Part shown: positions 23,741 through 30,700 of the stretch, in pieces
Numbering within the stretch: position 1 is the stretch's first letter
Layout: the number at the start of each line of letters is the position of its first letter
Assembly (NCBI GenBank): GCA_963731265.1
Contig: CAVSUE010000001.1
Coordinates: forward strand, 1,280,001 to 1,344,000
Reading direction: 5' to 3'
Origin: an uncultured Verrucomicrobiae bacterium
GTDB taxonomy: Bacteria; Chlamydiota; Chlamydiia; Chlamydiales; Rhabdochlamydiaceae
DNA length: 64,000 nucleotides
Notes under the pieces: model-generated
What the model was told of the DNA's origin: nothing
Databases searched by the model: none
The model's input: only the letters and a program-made list of their open reading frames with translations
Program-made: the position numbers and the translations under genes

Positions 23741-25210
23741 ATGTTTTTTCACAAAATTCTTCCAATTATATATACCGGAAATGATTCAAAAGTTGGGAAT
23801 TTGGCAAGGCGGTTGCGCAAATTTTTTGTCTGGAGCAAGCGACCATTGTGCAAGCACAAGGCTCGAGATTCAGTCTCGGCATGTTTGCCGAGAAGCGACC
23901 CAACGGCTTGGCTCGCGTCTGATCTCGAGGTGAAGCGCGGCACAAGCTCGATGCAGCCAGCTGCAAAGATGAGGATGTCGACGAAACCAGTGGCCAATTT
24001 TTGGATCACGATGGGTATACTTTGCTCATCTTCTTTCTTACATGCCGACTTGAACACAGACGTTGCCGCGCTCACAGCTGGGCATACCGAATTTGCCTTT
24101 TCCCTTTATCCCACCCTGGATACCGGCGATACTAACCTCGTGTTTTCCCCTTATTCGATCTCCACGTGCCTTTCTATGGTTTATCTGGGCGCAAGGGGAG
24201 AGACCCAATCGCAGATGCAGTCCGGGCTTCACATGAAGGTCGACAGAAAAAATCTCCCCAAAACGGCTTTCGCGCTCAATCAATCTTTGCTGCCCCAAAA
24301 AAACAGCGAAAAGACTTACAAGCTGAATATGGCAAACGCTGTTTGGGTCGACCAGGGAACTTTCCTGTTGACCGACTTCAGATATTCCATCGAACAGCAA
24401 TTCAAAGCAAAACTGGGAACCCTAAATTTTGACGCCGCGCCGGAAAAAGCGCTGGAATCGATCAACGTGTGGGTATCTCAGCAGACTCAAGGCAAAATTC
24501 CACGCCTCCTCAATGGCGACGATATCAACAAAATGACGCGCCTGGTCCTTACGAATGCCGTGTTCTTTCAGGGAAATTGGATTTCTCCTTTCGATCCCAA
24601 GGAAACCTACGAAGCTCCTTTTTATTCTAAACCGGAAGAAAGCGTGCCAACAATGATGATGCACAAGACACATTCTGTTCCGTATTTTGAGAATGAACTT
24701 CTTCAGGCTGTCGCTCTACCCTTTGCCGGAACCTCAAATGAGGGAGGCCAATTGGCGTTTTTTGCTCTACTTCCCAAATCCTCGGATAATTTTTCGGCAA
24801 TGCTCAGCGAGCTTGACGGATCGTTTAGTGAATGGGTTTCCTCTTTGTCCCCAGCACACGTAGAACTCACACTTCCCAAATTCACTTTTTCCAGCCGCTT
24901 CGATTTAAACAAACCTCTGCAGGATTTAGGAATAGACGATGCCTTCGATTCCAATGCGAATTTCACAGGCATAGATGGGATGCGCGATCTCTTTTTAAAC
25001 AAAGTCGTCTCTTTAACCTATTTCGCTTTAGATGAAATTGGAGTGACAGCCGCTGCAGCCACCAGTGGTGGTATGAATGTCACTTTTGTTCCTGAAAAAC
25101 CGCCAATCCCCTTCGATGCGGATCATCCCTTCCTCTTTTTCATCATCGATTTAAAGTCGAAAGAAGTATTATTCATGGGAAAAGTGGTCCAACCTGAAGA
25201 AAATGTATGA
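23741..25210 (+). CDS. Serpin family protease inhibitor; signal peptide interrupted in frame by element R (alternative starts 23726, 23969/23975)
   Basis: NLVFSPYSI, GARGETQSQM, INVWV..QTQGKI, LTNAVFFQGNW..PF, LPKF, hinge EIGVTAAAAT, ADHPFLFFI, LFMGKV. Confidence 0.93.
   Translation: MFFHKILPIIYTGNDSKVGNLARRLRKFFVWSKRPLCKHKARDSVSACLPRSDPTAWLASDLEVKRGTSSMQPAAKMRMSTKPVANFWITMGILCSSSFLHADLNTDVAALTAGHTEFAFSLYPTLDTGDTNLVFSPYSISTCLSMVYLGARGETQSQMQSGLHMKVDRKNLPKTAFALNQSLLPQKNSEKTYKLNMANAVWVDQGTFLLTDFRYSIEQQFKAKLGTLNFDAAPEKALESINVWVSQQTQGKIPRLLNGDDINKMTRLVLTNAVFFQGNWISPFDPKETYEAPFYSKPEESVPTMMMHKTHSVPYFENELLQAVALPFAGTSNEGGQLAFFALLPKSSDNFSAMLSELDGSFSEWVSSLSPAHVELTLPKFTFSSRFDLNKPLQDLGIDDAFDSNANFTGIDGMRDLFLNKVVSLTYFALDEIGVTAAAATSGGMNVTFVPEKPPIPFDADHPFLFFIIDLKSKEVLFMGKVVQPEENV
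23771..24019. mobile_element. Element R copy (249 bp), in frame within serpin
   Basis: TATACCGGAAATGATTCAAAAGTTGG ... CCAATTTTTGGATCACGATGGGTATA. Removal gives MFFHKILPII|LCSSSFLHAD. Confidence 0.85.
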
Positions 25211-25323
25211 ACCCAGCCTTAAGGTCTGGGATTAAGTTGGAGCCGAGCTTCGTACTTGGCTCAACATTGTTTTTGAAAATACCCGGGCCTGAAGGGCCGG
25301 GTTTCCGCCGGAGGACGGATGAA
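25207..25323 (+). mobile_element. Element A copy 3 (uninterrupted, 112 bp plus ATGAA)
   Basis: ATGAA-CCCAGCCTTAAGGTCTGGG...CCCGGGCCTGAAGGGCCGGG-TTTCCGCCGGAGGACGG-ATGAA, between the serpin stop and the PP2C start. Confidence 0.9.
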
Positions 25324-27663: not shown

Positions 27664-27760
27664 TAATATCCCCTCTAGGTTTAAAATAATATTTAAACCA
27701 TGAAAATTAATTCAATTTGATGTAGAACTTAAACACGAAAAATAGAAAAAGCATGGTTTT

Positions 27761-30700
27761 ATGAGCATCAAGAACATCCAAATGAATGATATGACCGCTG
27801 CGCTTCCGGTTTGCACATGGGAACAAGAACCGGGAACTTGGATTCGTGATCAGATTGCCTTTTCCTCGATGAACCCAGCTATGGGAACTGCTATCTTTAA
27901 GAAAGTCATCAATGAAAAAATCCCCCTTGCAAAGAATCTAATTTCTCATGCTGGTTTTAAAATTAAAGAAGCTCATTTAGCGTTACCAATCAAGACGGTT
28001 TTTTTTATTTTTATCGATGAGCTCGTCGAGCACTATCAAAATCAGACGGGGGAAAGAGACGAACAATTGGATCAAGAGTACATCAAACTCAAAGAGCTAC
28101 TCGCCAAGAAGCATTCTCAAATCTGGTCTAATGATCAAAGTGAGTTCCTTGAATTTGTGCATCTATTAAAAACCAAATTAATTCTCGCGGATGCTGTGCC
28201 GCCTGAGTTCGACGCTCAACTTGCCCAATGGTCCGAAGTTCTTAATATTCAATACGTCGCCAATATGATGTTTCTAGCGCTTTTTTTTCCTGATAGTTAT
28301 GTAAAAACTCAGCATCGCTTACCAACCACTGAACTTTATATGGATGACAAGTATTACTTCCGGGAAATTACTCGTGGTGGTGTTTTACAAACATTCGATT
28401 TAATTTTGAATCAGCTCTATAAAGATTCTTCGTGGGTTCTCCCCAAAATGATTGAAAAGTTACCCCCCCTAAATAACGATAAATTAGAGGAAGAATTCTT
28501 TAGATTTACTGCGTTCGATCGCCAACTTGCGCTGAATAATATTACACCTGTTTTTTCTTTAGTGCGAATATACGCCGTTGAAATGAATAATATCCTTAGT
28601 CGGCTTTATTCAATCAATATTCAAGACAACGAACAACTTATTCCATTATTAGGCAGCATTCAGGCAACTATAGAGATAGTCTGCCATTCATCATTAAAAT
28701 TTGAACAAATGATCAAAACAATGACTAATAACAAAAATAAGTCATATTACAAATCTGGAGTTACAATAAATTCAAGCCATGTTCTATTTCATAATCTCAT
28801 AAGTTATGCAGAGAGTGCACACTTAAAGTCGAAATATCTGGACATTCCTTTAAAAAATCTAAATCGAATTATAAATGCAATAATTAATTCCAATAGTTAT
28901 TGGCTCGAGTGCGAAAAGGAAGAAAAAACGCCAGCTTTAGGAACGCCTTATTTAATTAGTACAGCAATAAGAAATAATAAAAATTCCGAAGATTCATTAC
29001 TCGCAGAACTGGAAAAAGAAAAAAAAGTAAAAAAGGATAAACATCCCAACTGCTCTTCGATTAAAAAAAGAGGTAAAGGGAACACGAGGGCTGCAGAAAA
29101 TTGTGAAAAAAAAGGAAAGAATTCGCAAGCAAAGTTGGAACATCTACAACAAGCGGTTCAAAACGTGCCCAATGGCAATGTCGGCGCCTCAGATTTGCCG
29201 CAGCTGCTGCCATTGGCGAGGCTCGAGAGCAGCTCGGCAATCTTGCCAACAAGCCAGCCAACTGTTTGGCTCGCTTCTAATCTCCAGGTGAAATGCGGTA
29301 CAATACGCGATTTGGCTAATGCTGCCCATTCCAAAGATTGGGATGCGAGTCACGGCAGCGGCCAAATTTTGAATGACCATGTGTATGAAGCCTTTGCTCA
29401 ATTAGACAGCAGGCCCTCGAACCCGGCTTCCCCGGTGTGCTCCACACATACCACCACCCCATTTGTTACGCCGCCTTCAATCACGGGAGCCCAAACTGCA
29501 TCTATAACCACGGGTTCCAGCTTGGGAAAACACCTTTCCTCTGCTCCTAGCAGCCGGGACTTCAGCCGGGCAGTTACGGCACGTTTTCCTCGGCCAATTA
29601 AAATTTTGAGAAAAAAACTCAGAGAACTTCATATTAAGAATCCGTCCTCATCGTTGCGGCAAGCGATGTGGCATTTCGACCATTTGATCGTGATTCAAGG
29701 CAGCCTTGCCGAATCTGCTTTGGCGACCCCGGACCAATTATGCTTGATGGCAGCGGCGACAAATTATGCTCAAAAAACGTTGGAGCAAACTTACCGTTTT
29801 TGTTTGAAACAAGAGCAAGCCCCCTTCACAACAACGCATAATTTAAAAACCTATCACAAGCAGCTGGATCCTCATTTTTCGACTTACCCTACCATCGTTA
29901 AAGACCTCTTTTTAGCCAATGACTGGCACCGCTACTTTTATACCCAGCATAAAAAGTGGACTTCCCACACGACATTCCAGGTAAACATCCCTCCCCTTTT
30001 AGAGAAATTATACAAGATAGCCGAAGGGCAGACGGGTTCTGTAGGAGAATTGAATAAGACGGTCGAAGAAATGATCGAAAATACTTCGAAGCACTTGGAG
30101 ATCTTATTGAAACAGACGGACGTGGCGGCCAGTGATCGGCTAAGTCCACGTGAAGAAGTGCAATGGTTGAAAAAAGCTTTTCATGAGCAACGGTTCATGG
30201 GAATTCAACAAACGCTTGAGAATTTTCTGGAGAATTTTAAAATGACTCATCCGGTTTACTCAACTGCAAAGCAAGCGGTGGCTTCTTTAAAAATCCTGGA
30301 AGCAAGCATCCAACAAATGAACAAAGCTAACGACATCGGCGAGTTCTCAACATGGGCTGTGGGGAGTTTGCAACAGGTTCAAGAGTCGATCGAAAACGTT
30401 TTCCACTGCATCGAATATTACAAGAAAGGAAAAATAAGCTCTCAACACGAGCTTAAGACATTTGCTGGGGAGCTCGGCATCAATATGGGATCTTTGGCGG
30501 ACAACACTCAGGAGCTCTCCTACAAAGTGCGCTACCCCGTTGAGAACAAAAATAATAGCCTGTCTGCTCAGATCATCGATGATCTTGAGGCACTTAAGGA
30601 GTTTCCCGATCTAGAAAAGGGCTTCAAATTGCAAACCACTCCAAAGACATTATGGGCACCCCCAAGTTCTGAAGCGTCTCTGAGTAAAGTTGTTGAAAAA

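What the first reader, a model, noticed from the sequence alone, without database searches (positions are those of the whole stretch)
23771..29387. A palindromic element translated inside three unrelated proteins (chlamydial analogue of Rickettsia palindromic elements)
SEEN: related DNA lies in frame in the serpin (23771-24019), PP2C (25779-25934) and the 1018-aa orphan (29143-29387). Shared blocks: CTCGATGCAGCCAGCTGCAAA.ATGAGGATG (serpin/PP2C), AATGGCAATGTCG..AGATTTGC (PP2C/orphan), TTGGCTCGC.TCT.ATCTC.AGGTGAA (serpin/orphan: PTAWLASDLEVKRGT vs PTVWLASNLQVKCGT), and the end TTTTG(A/G)AT...GTAT. A non-coding 84-bp relative with near-perfect TIRs sits at 54157. The 3' block is read in two frames (MQPAAKMRMSTK vs DAASCKNEDAGE) and both are open. 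KNOWN: RPEs of Rickettsia insert in frame into genes; TA-duplicating TIR elements are typical of IS630/Tc1. INFERENCE: an IS630-like MITE family donating peptide segments to the proteome. I am not aware of this being described for Chlamydiota, but could not check.
Basis: partly seen in the sequence, partly recalled or inferred. Interest (0 to 1): 0.88.

Follow-up and report, generated by a model that had tools for sequence, protein, structure and literature searches.

The report
Palindromic transposon relics inside chlamydial genes
A small palindromic mobile element, common in environmental chlamydiae, sits in frame inside three neighbouring genes of this genome, much as the Rickettsia palindromic elements do, so it is a new example of a known oddity.

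Summary
Related DNA lies in frame in the serpin (23771-24019), the PP2C phosphatase (25777-25934) and the 1018-aa orphan (about 29143-29387). An 84-nt non-coding copy with 33-nt inverted ends lies at 54157-54240. The similarity is significant (nhmmer E 1e-17 and 3e-12).

No relative carries these segments: 0 of 65 PP2C homologues, 0 of 21 serpin homologues and 0 of 3 relatives of the orphan.

The element belongs to a family of whole-length palindromic MITEs with TATAC...GTATA ends. I found 38 copies in other, mostly chlamydial, genome assemblies. The first 97-100 nt of the serpin copy are 93-96% identical to 164-nt intergenic copies in another assembly. Two further in-frame copies occur in unrelated genes of other genomes (L017, L030).

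AlphaFold models the PP2C insert as a disordered loop on an intact fold. In the serpin the insert splits the signal peptide, so translation may restart at an ATG inside the element.

The IS630 link is untested: I found no transposase. Translation is inferred, not shown. Six literature searches found no chlamydial report.

Verdict: a real, RPE-like case, a new member of a known kind.

The parts
23771..24019 (+). Full-length (249 nt, 83 codons) MITE copy with both inverted ends, in frame in the serpin gene. It splits the hydrophobic core of the signal peptide. An extra TA lies at 23769-23770.
   Evidence: The closest orthologue, P0124 (94% identity, 406 aa), runs straight through the site, and 0 of 21 homologue N-termini carry the segment. 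Its first 97-100 nt are 93-96% identical to 164-nt MITEs in 12 loci of assembly CAVOSF01. RNA fold z -3.8.
23726..25210 (+). Serpin ORF of 494 aa. The Pfam serpin domain covers residues 120-490.
   Evidence: In-frame ATGs inside the element at 23951, 23969 and 23975 would give an N-terminus that looks like a signal peptide.
25777..25934 (+). Internally shortened MITE copy in the PP2C gene, with a degenerate 5' end. The net insert is 25777-25932, 156 nt or 52 codons.
   Evidence: It forms a 52-residue gap in 8 of 8 homologues and in 65 of 65. It is 87% identical over 107 nt to the element in L017. RNA fold z -1.2.
25319..26293 (+). PP2C-type Ser/Thr phosphatase ORF of 324 aa, with the conserved PP2C columns intact.
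   Evidence: In some searches the Pfam matches fall on either side of the insert. In one search the invariant columns include the DGMGGH, GDSR, DG and DN positions. AlphaFold2 gives pLDDT above 90 for the fold. The insert, residues 154-204, is a loop with block-mean pLDDT 39-52 between strands 147-153 and 205-209. The best PDB match is PstP 1txo, TM 0.86 normalised to the target.
29143..29387 (+). Decayed MITE copy of about 245 nt, with approximate ends, in frame in the variable linker of the 1018-aa protein.
   Evidence: It is absent from the tandem paralogue and from 3 of 3 relatives. RNA fold z -2.1.
27761..30817 (+). Host ORF of 1018 aa with no Pfam family.
30945..33716 (+). Tandem paralogue of 923 aa that lacks the element. 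It serves as an internal control.
54157..54240 (.). Non-coding 84-nt copy, a deletion derivative with 33-nt inverted ends, in the spacer after the 1390-aa ORF.
   Evidence: I16, 94% complementary. An 83-nt copy lies at the same site in a relative that is about 90% identical in DNA (L051).

Best explanation
A family of non-autonomous, whole-length palindromic transposable elements (MITEs) is spread among environmental Chlamydiota. Typical copies are 164-170 nt, longer subfamilies are about 218-250 nt, and the ends read TATAC...TGAYTCAAAAG and its complement.

Three copies landed in three neighbouring genes of this genome. In the serpin and the PP2C gene this happened after the split from the closest sequenced relative. 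Each copy survived for three reasons: it adds a whole number of codons, it has no stop in the frame used, and it sits where extra residues do little harm. Those places are the N-terminal signal region of the serpin, a beta-hairpin turn of the PP2C phosphatase, and a variable linker of the orphan protein.

The copies have since decayed. They have lost most of their hairpin potential, and the PP2C copy has an internal deletion. They are now carried as extra peptide segments.

Shown: the family, the insertions and the open frames. Inferred: that the segments are translated and tolerated. Also inferred: that the element inserts at TA and duplicates it. In the serpin, the working protein most likely starts at an ATG inside the element, which rebuilds a signal peptide.
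For: Similarity between the copies is significant (E 1.1e-17 and 3.1e-12; 9 motif hits against 0.44 expected).

The inserts are absent from relatives:
- PP2C: 0 of 65 aligned homologues. The closest is 85% identical and exactly 52 residues shorter.
- Serpin: 0 of 21. The closest is 94% identical.
- Orphan: 0 of 3, including the tandem paralogue.

The family exists as free DNA:
- There are 20 intact end-pairs of 58-170 nt in other genomes, and 38 copies in all in the sampled loci.
- The 5' 97-100 nt of the serpin copy are 93-96% identical to 12 copies of assembly CAVOSF01.
- The 84-nt copy is shared at the same site with a relative about 90% identical in DNA (L051).

In-frame use recurs elsewhere:
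- L017 holds a 218-nt element inside an ORF of at least 579 aa. It is read in the same frame as the PP2C and orphan copies, with peptide identity of 71% and 47%.
- L030 holds a 167-nt element in the middle of a 368-codon open frame that carries a GT9 domain.

The three in-frame copies whose ends are clear (158, 218 and 167 nt) all have length 2 mod 3, as expected if 2 nt of the measured length are a duplicated TA.

The PP2C fold is predicted intact, with the insert as a low-confidence loop. A profile of the peptide finds only 26 proteins among 1.84 billion representatives, and 23 of them are 217 aa or shorter. That pattern fits a DNA element, not a protein domain.
Against: There are no expression or protein data, so retention of the segments in mRNA and protein is inferred.

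The serpin copy adds 249 nt, not the 247 expected from a TA duplication. An extra TA is needed to keep the frame. That could be a later compensating change or a sequencing error.

The left TA of the PP2C copy now reads AC. A 9-nt near-repeat (AAACTNCAG) flanks that copy, which leaves the exact junction open.

No autonomous element or transposase was found (0 of 37 window ORFs; 0 of 20 ORFs near copies elsewhere).

Genome-wide copy numbers and the coding fraction are therefore unknown.

The N-terminal half of the L030 frame matched no family. That it is one gene is inferred from the open frame.
Confidence: 0.85

Rival explanations
1. The insertions are damage, not added peptide. The serpin insert destroys the signal peptide, and the gene is either dead or re-initiated downstream. 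The PP2C and orphan genes may be young pseudogenes that still have open frames.
For: Read from the ancestral ATG, the hydrophobic stretch is cut after about 10 residues and is followed by charged residues. In-frame ATGs at 23951, 23969 and 23975 give an N-terminus with basic residues followed by a hydrophobic stretch that runs into the ancestral cleavage region. The 494-aa form was not returned as a database entry of its own, while the PP2C and orphan proteins were.
Against: All three frames are open over 324-1018 codons. The invariant PP2C columns are kept and the fold is predicted at pLDDT above 90 outside the insert. The serpin is 94% identical to its orthologue over the domain. Even with an internal start, part of the element would be translated as signal peptide.
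Confidence: 0.3
2. The shared segments are a protein module moved between genes by recombination or domain shuffling, not by transposition.
For: The copies lie within 5.6 kb of each other on one strand. The peptides of the PP2C, orphan and L017 copies align.
Against: The copies have terminal inverted repeats. The same DNA is read in different frames in different hosts. Near-identical copies are intergenic in other genomes. No similarity extends beyond the element ends. The peptide is almost confined to short ORFs.
Confidence: 0.03
3. The insertions are assembly or sequencing artefacts, that is, repeat-induced misassembly in a metagenome-derived genome.
For: The source appears to be a single 2.0-Mb contig of an uncultured organism. 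The extra TA in the serpin copy could be an error.
Against: The three copies differ from each other by 14-37%, and each is flanked by unique gene sequence in frame. Misassembly would not give three divergent, frame-preserving inserts.
Confidence: 0.03

Closest known systems
Rickettsia palindromic elements (RPEs)
   Same: Both are short palindromic repeats of an obligate intracellular bacterium. Both are found in intergenic DNA and in frame within unrelated protein-coding genes, where they add a peptide segment at sites the fold tolerates. A 2024 review (PMC10969869, passages read) describes this for RPEs. It says a similar mechanism in other prokaryotes is conceivable. R. bellii has 526 RPEs, 53 of them in protein genes (PMC1458961, passages read).
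   Different: This is a different phylum. Here the ends are clear 20-33-nt inverted repeats with TA-containing termini, like a classical MITE. The coding fraction in my sample of other genomes is lower (2 of 38 mid-ORF). I did not test sequence relatedness to RPEs, because no RPE sequence was on hand.
Intragenic MITEs of other bacteria (ERIC, pneumococcal BOX, QMITE1 of Coxiella burnetii, Anabaena MITEs)
   Same: These are also small non-autonomous elements that now and then make in-frame fusions with host ORFs. The review PMC10969869 calls this 'not unusual' (passage read).
   Different: Those are unrelated element families in other hosts. This one shows three in-frame copies in 5.6 kb, and the same subfamily recurs in frame in a gene of another genome (L017).
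IS630/Tc1-mariner-derived MITEs
   Same: The termini contain TA. The lengths of the in-frame copies fit a 2-nt duplication.
   Different: No transposase with matching ends was found, and no empty site was seen at DNA level. That IS630 duplicates TA is recalled from general knowledge, not from a call.

Membership tests
[quoted passage not shown] | Small and non-autonomous, with no transposase gene | tested here: met
   Copies are 58-250 nt. There is no room for a transposase.
[quoted passage not shown] | Terminal inverted repeats | tested here: met
   The arms at 54157/54208 are 33 nt and 94% complementary. Both ends are present in the serpin copy. There are 20 intact pairs in other genomes.
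[quoted passage not shown] | Many dispersed copies | tested here: met
[quoted passage not shown] | Target-site duplication | tested here: inconclusive
   All copies begin TATAC and end GTATA, and no longer direct repeat lies outside these ends. In-frame copies of 158, 218 and 167 nt all have length 2 mod 3, which fits a 2-nt duplication. The serpin copy needs an extra TA, and the left TA of the PP2C copy reads AC. No empty site was seen at DNA level.
[quoted passage not shown] | A parent insertion sequence with the same ends | tested here: inconclusive
   None was found among 37 window ORFs or 20 ORFs beside copies elsewhere. Whole genomes could not be searched.
IS630/Tc1-mariner derivative | A DDE transposase of that family flanked by the same inverted repeats | not testable with these tools
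The rest of the source genome was not available.
IS630/Tc1-mariner derivative | Insertion at TA with TA duplication | tested here: inconclusive
   See the target-site duplication row above.
Rickettsia palindromic elements | Palindromic repeat inserted in frame in functional genes | tested here: met
   There are three host ORFs here, plus L017 and L030. The L017 copy folds with z -13.2.
Rickettsia palindromic elements | Sequence membership in one of the RPE families of Rickettsia | not tested
   No RPE sequences were on hand. The host phylum is different, so I claim likeness of behaviour only.

The most novel reading that the evidence does not exclude
The family is shaped for life inside genes, in convergence with the Rickettsia elements. 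On this reading the main subfamilies add a whole number of codons, keep half of their six frames free of stops even in intergenic copies, and can therefore spread in gene-dense genomes of intracellular bacteria without killing their targets. In the serpin, the element would also have supplied a new start codon and the front half of a new signal peptide.

The support is only suggestive. The 164-, 167- and 170-nt subfamilies have 3 of 6 frames open, against 0.5-0.9 in dinucleotide- or palindrome-preserving shuffles (6-34 of 1000 shuffles reach 3). The 218-nt copy and the two 165-nt copies show no excess. Four of the six full-length size classes have length 2 mod 3.
Probability: 0.3. Interest if true: 0.75.

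Novelty: new member of a known kind. Interest (0 to 1): 0.6.

Why it matters
In-frame palindromic repeats have been treated mostly as a peculiarity of Rickettsia. A second, unrelated lineage of obligate intracellular bacteria with the same habit would suggest that gene-dense, host-restricted genomes favour mobile elements that can hide inside genes. It would also suggest that such elements are a recurrent source of new loops, linkers and signal sequences.

There are practical consequences too. These inserts split Pfam matches and mislead gene callers about start codons. They also inflate counts of small 'hypothetical proteins' in chlamydial metagenome bins: 23 of the 26 peptide hits are ORFs of 217 aa or fewer.

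Tried and rejected
- Weak nhmmer hit at 61671-61782 (E 0.021): it has no inverted ends on inspection, so I rejected it as a copy.
- Motif hit at 28438 (3 mismatches): treated as chance.
- Alternative serpin starts: I tried to learn which start the database holds. I did not repeat it.
- L030 as a single gene: the BLASTP of its frame against the window's own GT9 protein was not significant (E 0.13). The PDB sequence search found nothing. NCBIfam recognised only the C-terminal half. That the L030 frame is one gene therefore rests on the open frame.
- Rfam: nothing at the elements. The one hit in the window is the SRP RNA.
- Open-frame excess: mononucleotide shuffles made it look very strong. Stricter shuffles reduced it to about 2-3% per subfamily. 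I rely on the stricter result.
- Literature: searches found no description of such elements in Chlamydiota. One search was swamped by papers on arthropod mites.
- Not checked: the closed collections metagenome contigs and viral contigs, and the rest of the source genome. No supplements were consulted.
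Full report
**What is there.** The region holds three long ORFs on the + strand:
- a serpin, 23726-25210, 494 aa, with the Pfam serpin domain at residues 120-490;
- a PP2C-type phosphatase, 25319-26293, 324 aa;
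- a 1018-aa protein with no family, 27761-30817.

Each ORF contains a stretch of related DNA. The repeat finder reports a 73-nt block at 23947, 25862 and 29315 (100/86/63% identity). It also reports a 34-nt terminal block shared with a fourth place, 54212, and a 55-nt block shared by 25778 and 29144. The fourth place is an 84-nt non-coding element, 54157-54240, whose 33-nt arms are 94% complementary.

The terminal motif, with up to three mismatches, occurs nine times in the window against 0.44 expected; 0 of 100 shuffles reach nine. With the 249-nt serpin copy as query, nhmmer finds the orphan copy at E 1.1e-17 and the PP2C copy at E 3.1e-12.

**The segments are insertions.**
- PP2C: the closest homologue (P0005, 85% identical in the alignment) is 272 aa, exactly 52 residues shorter. 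In alignments of 8 and then 65 homologues, none has residues at this place.
- Serpin: the closest orthologue (P0124, 94% identical, 406 aa) runs without a break through the point where the window protein carries 83 extra residues. None of 21 homologue N-termini that I printed has the segment.
- Orphan: the tandem paralogue next door and two further relatives all lack the segment, 0 of 3. It falls in a variable linker.

**It is a mobile element family.** Many are single chance hits in unrelated phyla. The loci from chlamydial assemblies, several of them labelled 'Verrucomicrobiae' by their depositors, hold 20 intact end-pairs of 58-170 nt. nhmmer found 38 copies in all.

These copies are palindromic over their whole length. 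The first 97-100 nt of the serpin copy are 93-96% identical to 12 copies of the 164-nt form in assembly CAVOSF01. Locus L051 comes from a relative about 90% identical in DNA to window 52857-56390. It carries an 83-nt copy at the same site as the window's 84-nt copy, so that insertion predates their split.

The window itself is chlamydial. It encodes a DUF818 'Chlamydia CHLPS' protein and a CesT-type chaperone, and its homologues are named Rhabdochlamydiaceae or Parachlamydiales.

**In-frame use recurs in other genomes.**
- L017 (assembly CAWHZZ01) holds a 218-nt copy at 1105-1322 inside an ORF of at least 579 aa. It is read in the same frame as the PP2C and orphan copies, with peptide identity of 71% and 47%. 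It is nearly intact: it folds at -123.6 kcal/mol, z -13.2. The window's decayed copies give z -3.8, -1.2 and -2.1.
- L030 (assembly DATIHO01) holds a 167-nt copy in the middle of a 368-codon open frame whose C-terminal half matches glycosyltransferase family 9. The N-terminal half matched nothing.
- In my sample, 2 of 38 copies are mid-ORF, with at least 60 open codons on both sides. About nine more abut the 5' end of a long frame.
- A profile of the peptide, run against 1.84 billion representative proteins, found 26 hits at E of 0.001 or better. Of these, 23 are 217 aa or shorter. Among the 15 that I read are one fused to the start of a glycerol-kinase-like protein, one fused to the start of an LpxD-like protein (both names are my own recognition of the flanking residues, not a tool result), and one internal to a 302-aa protein. 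This is the signature of a DNA element caught by gene callers, not of a protein domain. Hosts whose cluster representative lacks the insert are invisible to this search.

**How the copies persist.**
- The three in-frame copies with clear ends measure 158, 218 and 167 nt from TATAC to GTATA. All are 2 mod 3, which is what a 2-nt (TA) duplication within those ends would require for a net insert of whole codons. No longer direct repeat flanks any of the 20 intact copies.
- The serpin copy is the exception. It adds 249 nt where 247 are expected, and an extra TA precedes its end. I read this as a later frame-restoring change or as an error.
- In PP2C the left TA now reads AC. A 9-nt near-repeat flanks the copy, so the exact junction is open.
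- AlphaFold2 with 66 sequences models the PP2C fold at pLDDT above 90. It models the insert, residues 154-204, as a loop with block-mean pLDDT 39-52 between strands 147-153 and 205-209. The model matches PstP, tPphA and Stp1 at TM 0.82-0.90, normalised to the target. The invariant PP2C columns are all kept.
- In the serpin the insert cuts the hydrophobic core of the signal peptide. Read from the old start, the hydrophobic run ends after about ten residues. An ATG inside the element (23951, 23969 or 23975) would instead give basic residues and then a hydrophobic stretch that runs into the old cleavage region. I think the internal start is the more likely working form, but nothing here tests it.

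**What is not established.**
- I found no transposase: 0 of 37 window ORFs and 0 of 20 ORFs beside copies elsewhere. The IS630 assignment therefore remains a lead based on the TA ends.
- Translation and function of the insert-bearing proteins are inferred from open frames, conserved residues and a model.
- The idea that the family is built to be harmless in genes gets only modest support. The 164-, 167- and 170-nt forms have 3 of 6 frames open, against 0.5-0.9 in dinucleotide- or palindrome-preserving shuffles (6-34 of 1000 reach 3). The 218-nt form and the two 165-nt forms show no excess. The much stronger result from simple shuffles should not be used.
- Genome-wide numbers are unknown.

**Comparison and novelty.** The behaviour is that of the Rickettsia palindromic elements, and of occasional intragenic MITEs in other bacteria. 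A 2024 review calls in-frame fusions 'not unusual' and RPEs the extreme case. It does not mention Chlamydia at all (PMC10969869, passages read). R. bellii has 526 RPEs, 53 of them in protein genes (PMC1458961, passages read).

Six full-text searches found no description of such elements in Chlamydiota. Subscription journals are largely outside that library.

I file this as a new member of a known kind: a real, well-supported chlamydial counterpart of RPEs, with classical MITE ends.

Noticed in passing
window 1448-1544, 25231-25327, 39789-39885, and inverted at 450-545: An ~88-nt repeat with two hairpins is followed by a GGAGGA Shine-Dalgarno-like motif and an ATG. The similarity ends 3-4 nt past the start codon of four different genes (ubiE-like 1536, PP2C 25319, amidotransferase 39877, minus-strand ORF starting at 455). 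All 4 of 4 copies abut a start codon, as if a repeated leader supplies the ribosome site and start.
   Followed up: partly
window ~539-714, 1271-1449, 21839-22010, 36582-36707: A second palindromic repeat family has related ends (TATACGCAAGTTGATACAACCCCC...). All copies are intergenic. It is also present in loci L014 and L035 of another chlamydial assembly.
   Followed up: partly
window 27397-27488: A 29-nt-arm palindrome (90% complementary) overlaps the end of the aminotransferase gene (ORF end 27416) and runs into the spacer beyond it. It is 85% identical over 95 nt to locus L117 of assembly CAWFUG01, so it is probably a third small mobile or terminator-like repeat.
   Followed up: no
window 27761-30817 and 30945-33716: These tandem paralogues of a large protein with no known family have 3' halves 86-92% identical in DNA, while their 5' halves are much more diverged. 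This suggests recent duplication or gene conversion. Only three relatives turned up in the protein search, which covered residues 380-700 of the query.
   Followed up: partly
L015 1159-1321; proteins P0266 and P0249: Copies of the element sit just upstream of, or fused to, the 5' ends of genes in other genomes: an MscS channel, a glycerol-kinase-like protein and an LpxD-like protein. Gene callers extend the ORFs into them. The glycerol-kinase and LpxD names are my own reading of the flanking residues.
   Followed up: partly
window 43458-49184: A 1908-aa ORF with no Pfam family contains at least seven copies of a 39-nt (13-codon) unit at irregular spacing.
   Followed up: no
window 14124-17363 and 41622-41720: yidC and dnaA lie side by side, so the window may lie near the replication origin. 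A bacterial small SRP RNA is at 41622-41720.
   Followed up: no
protein P0209 (457 aa): A database protein carries both serpin and PP2C Pfam domains. The two neighbouring genes may therefore be fused, or read through, in some relative.
   Followed up: no
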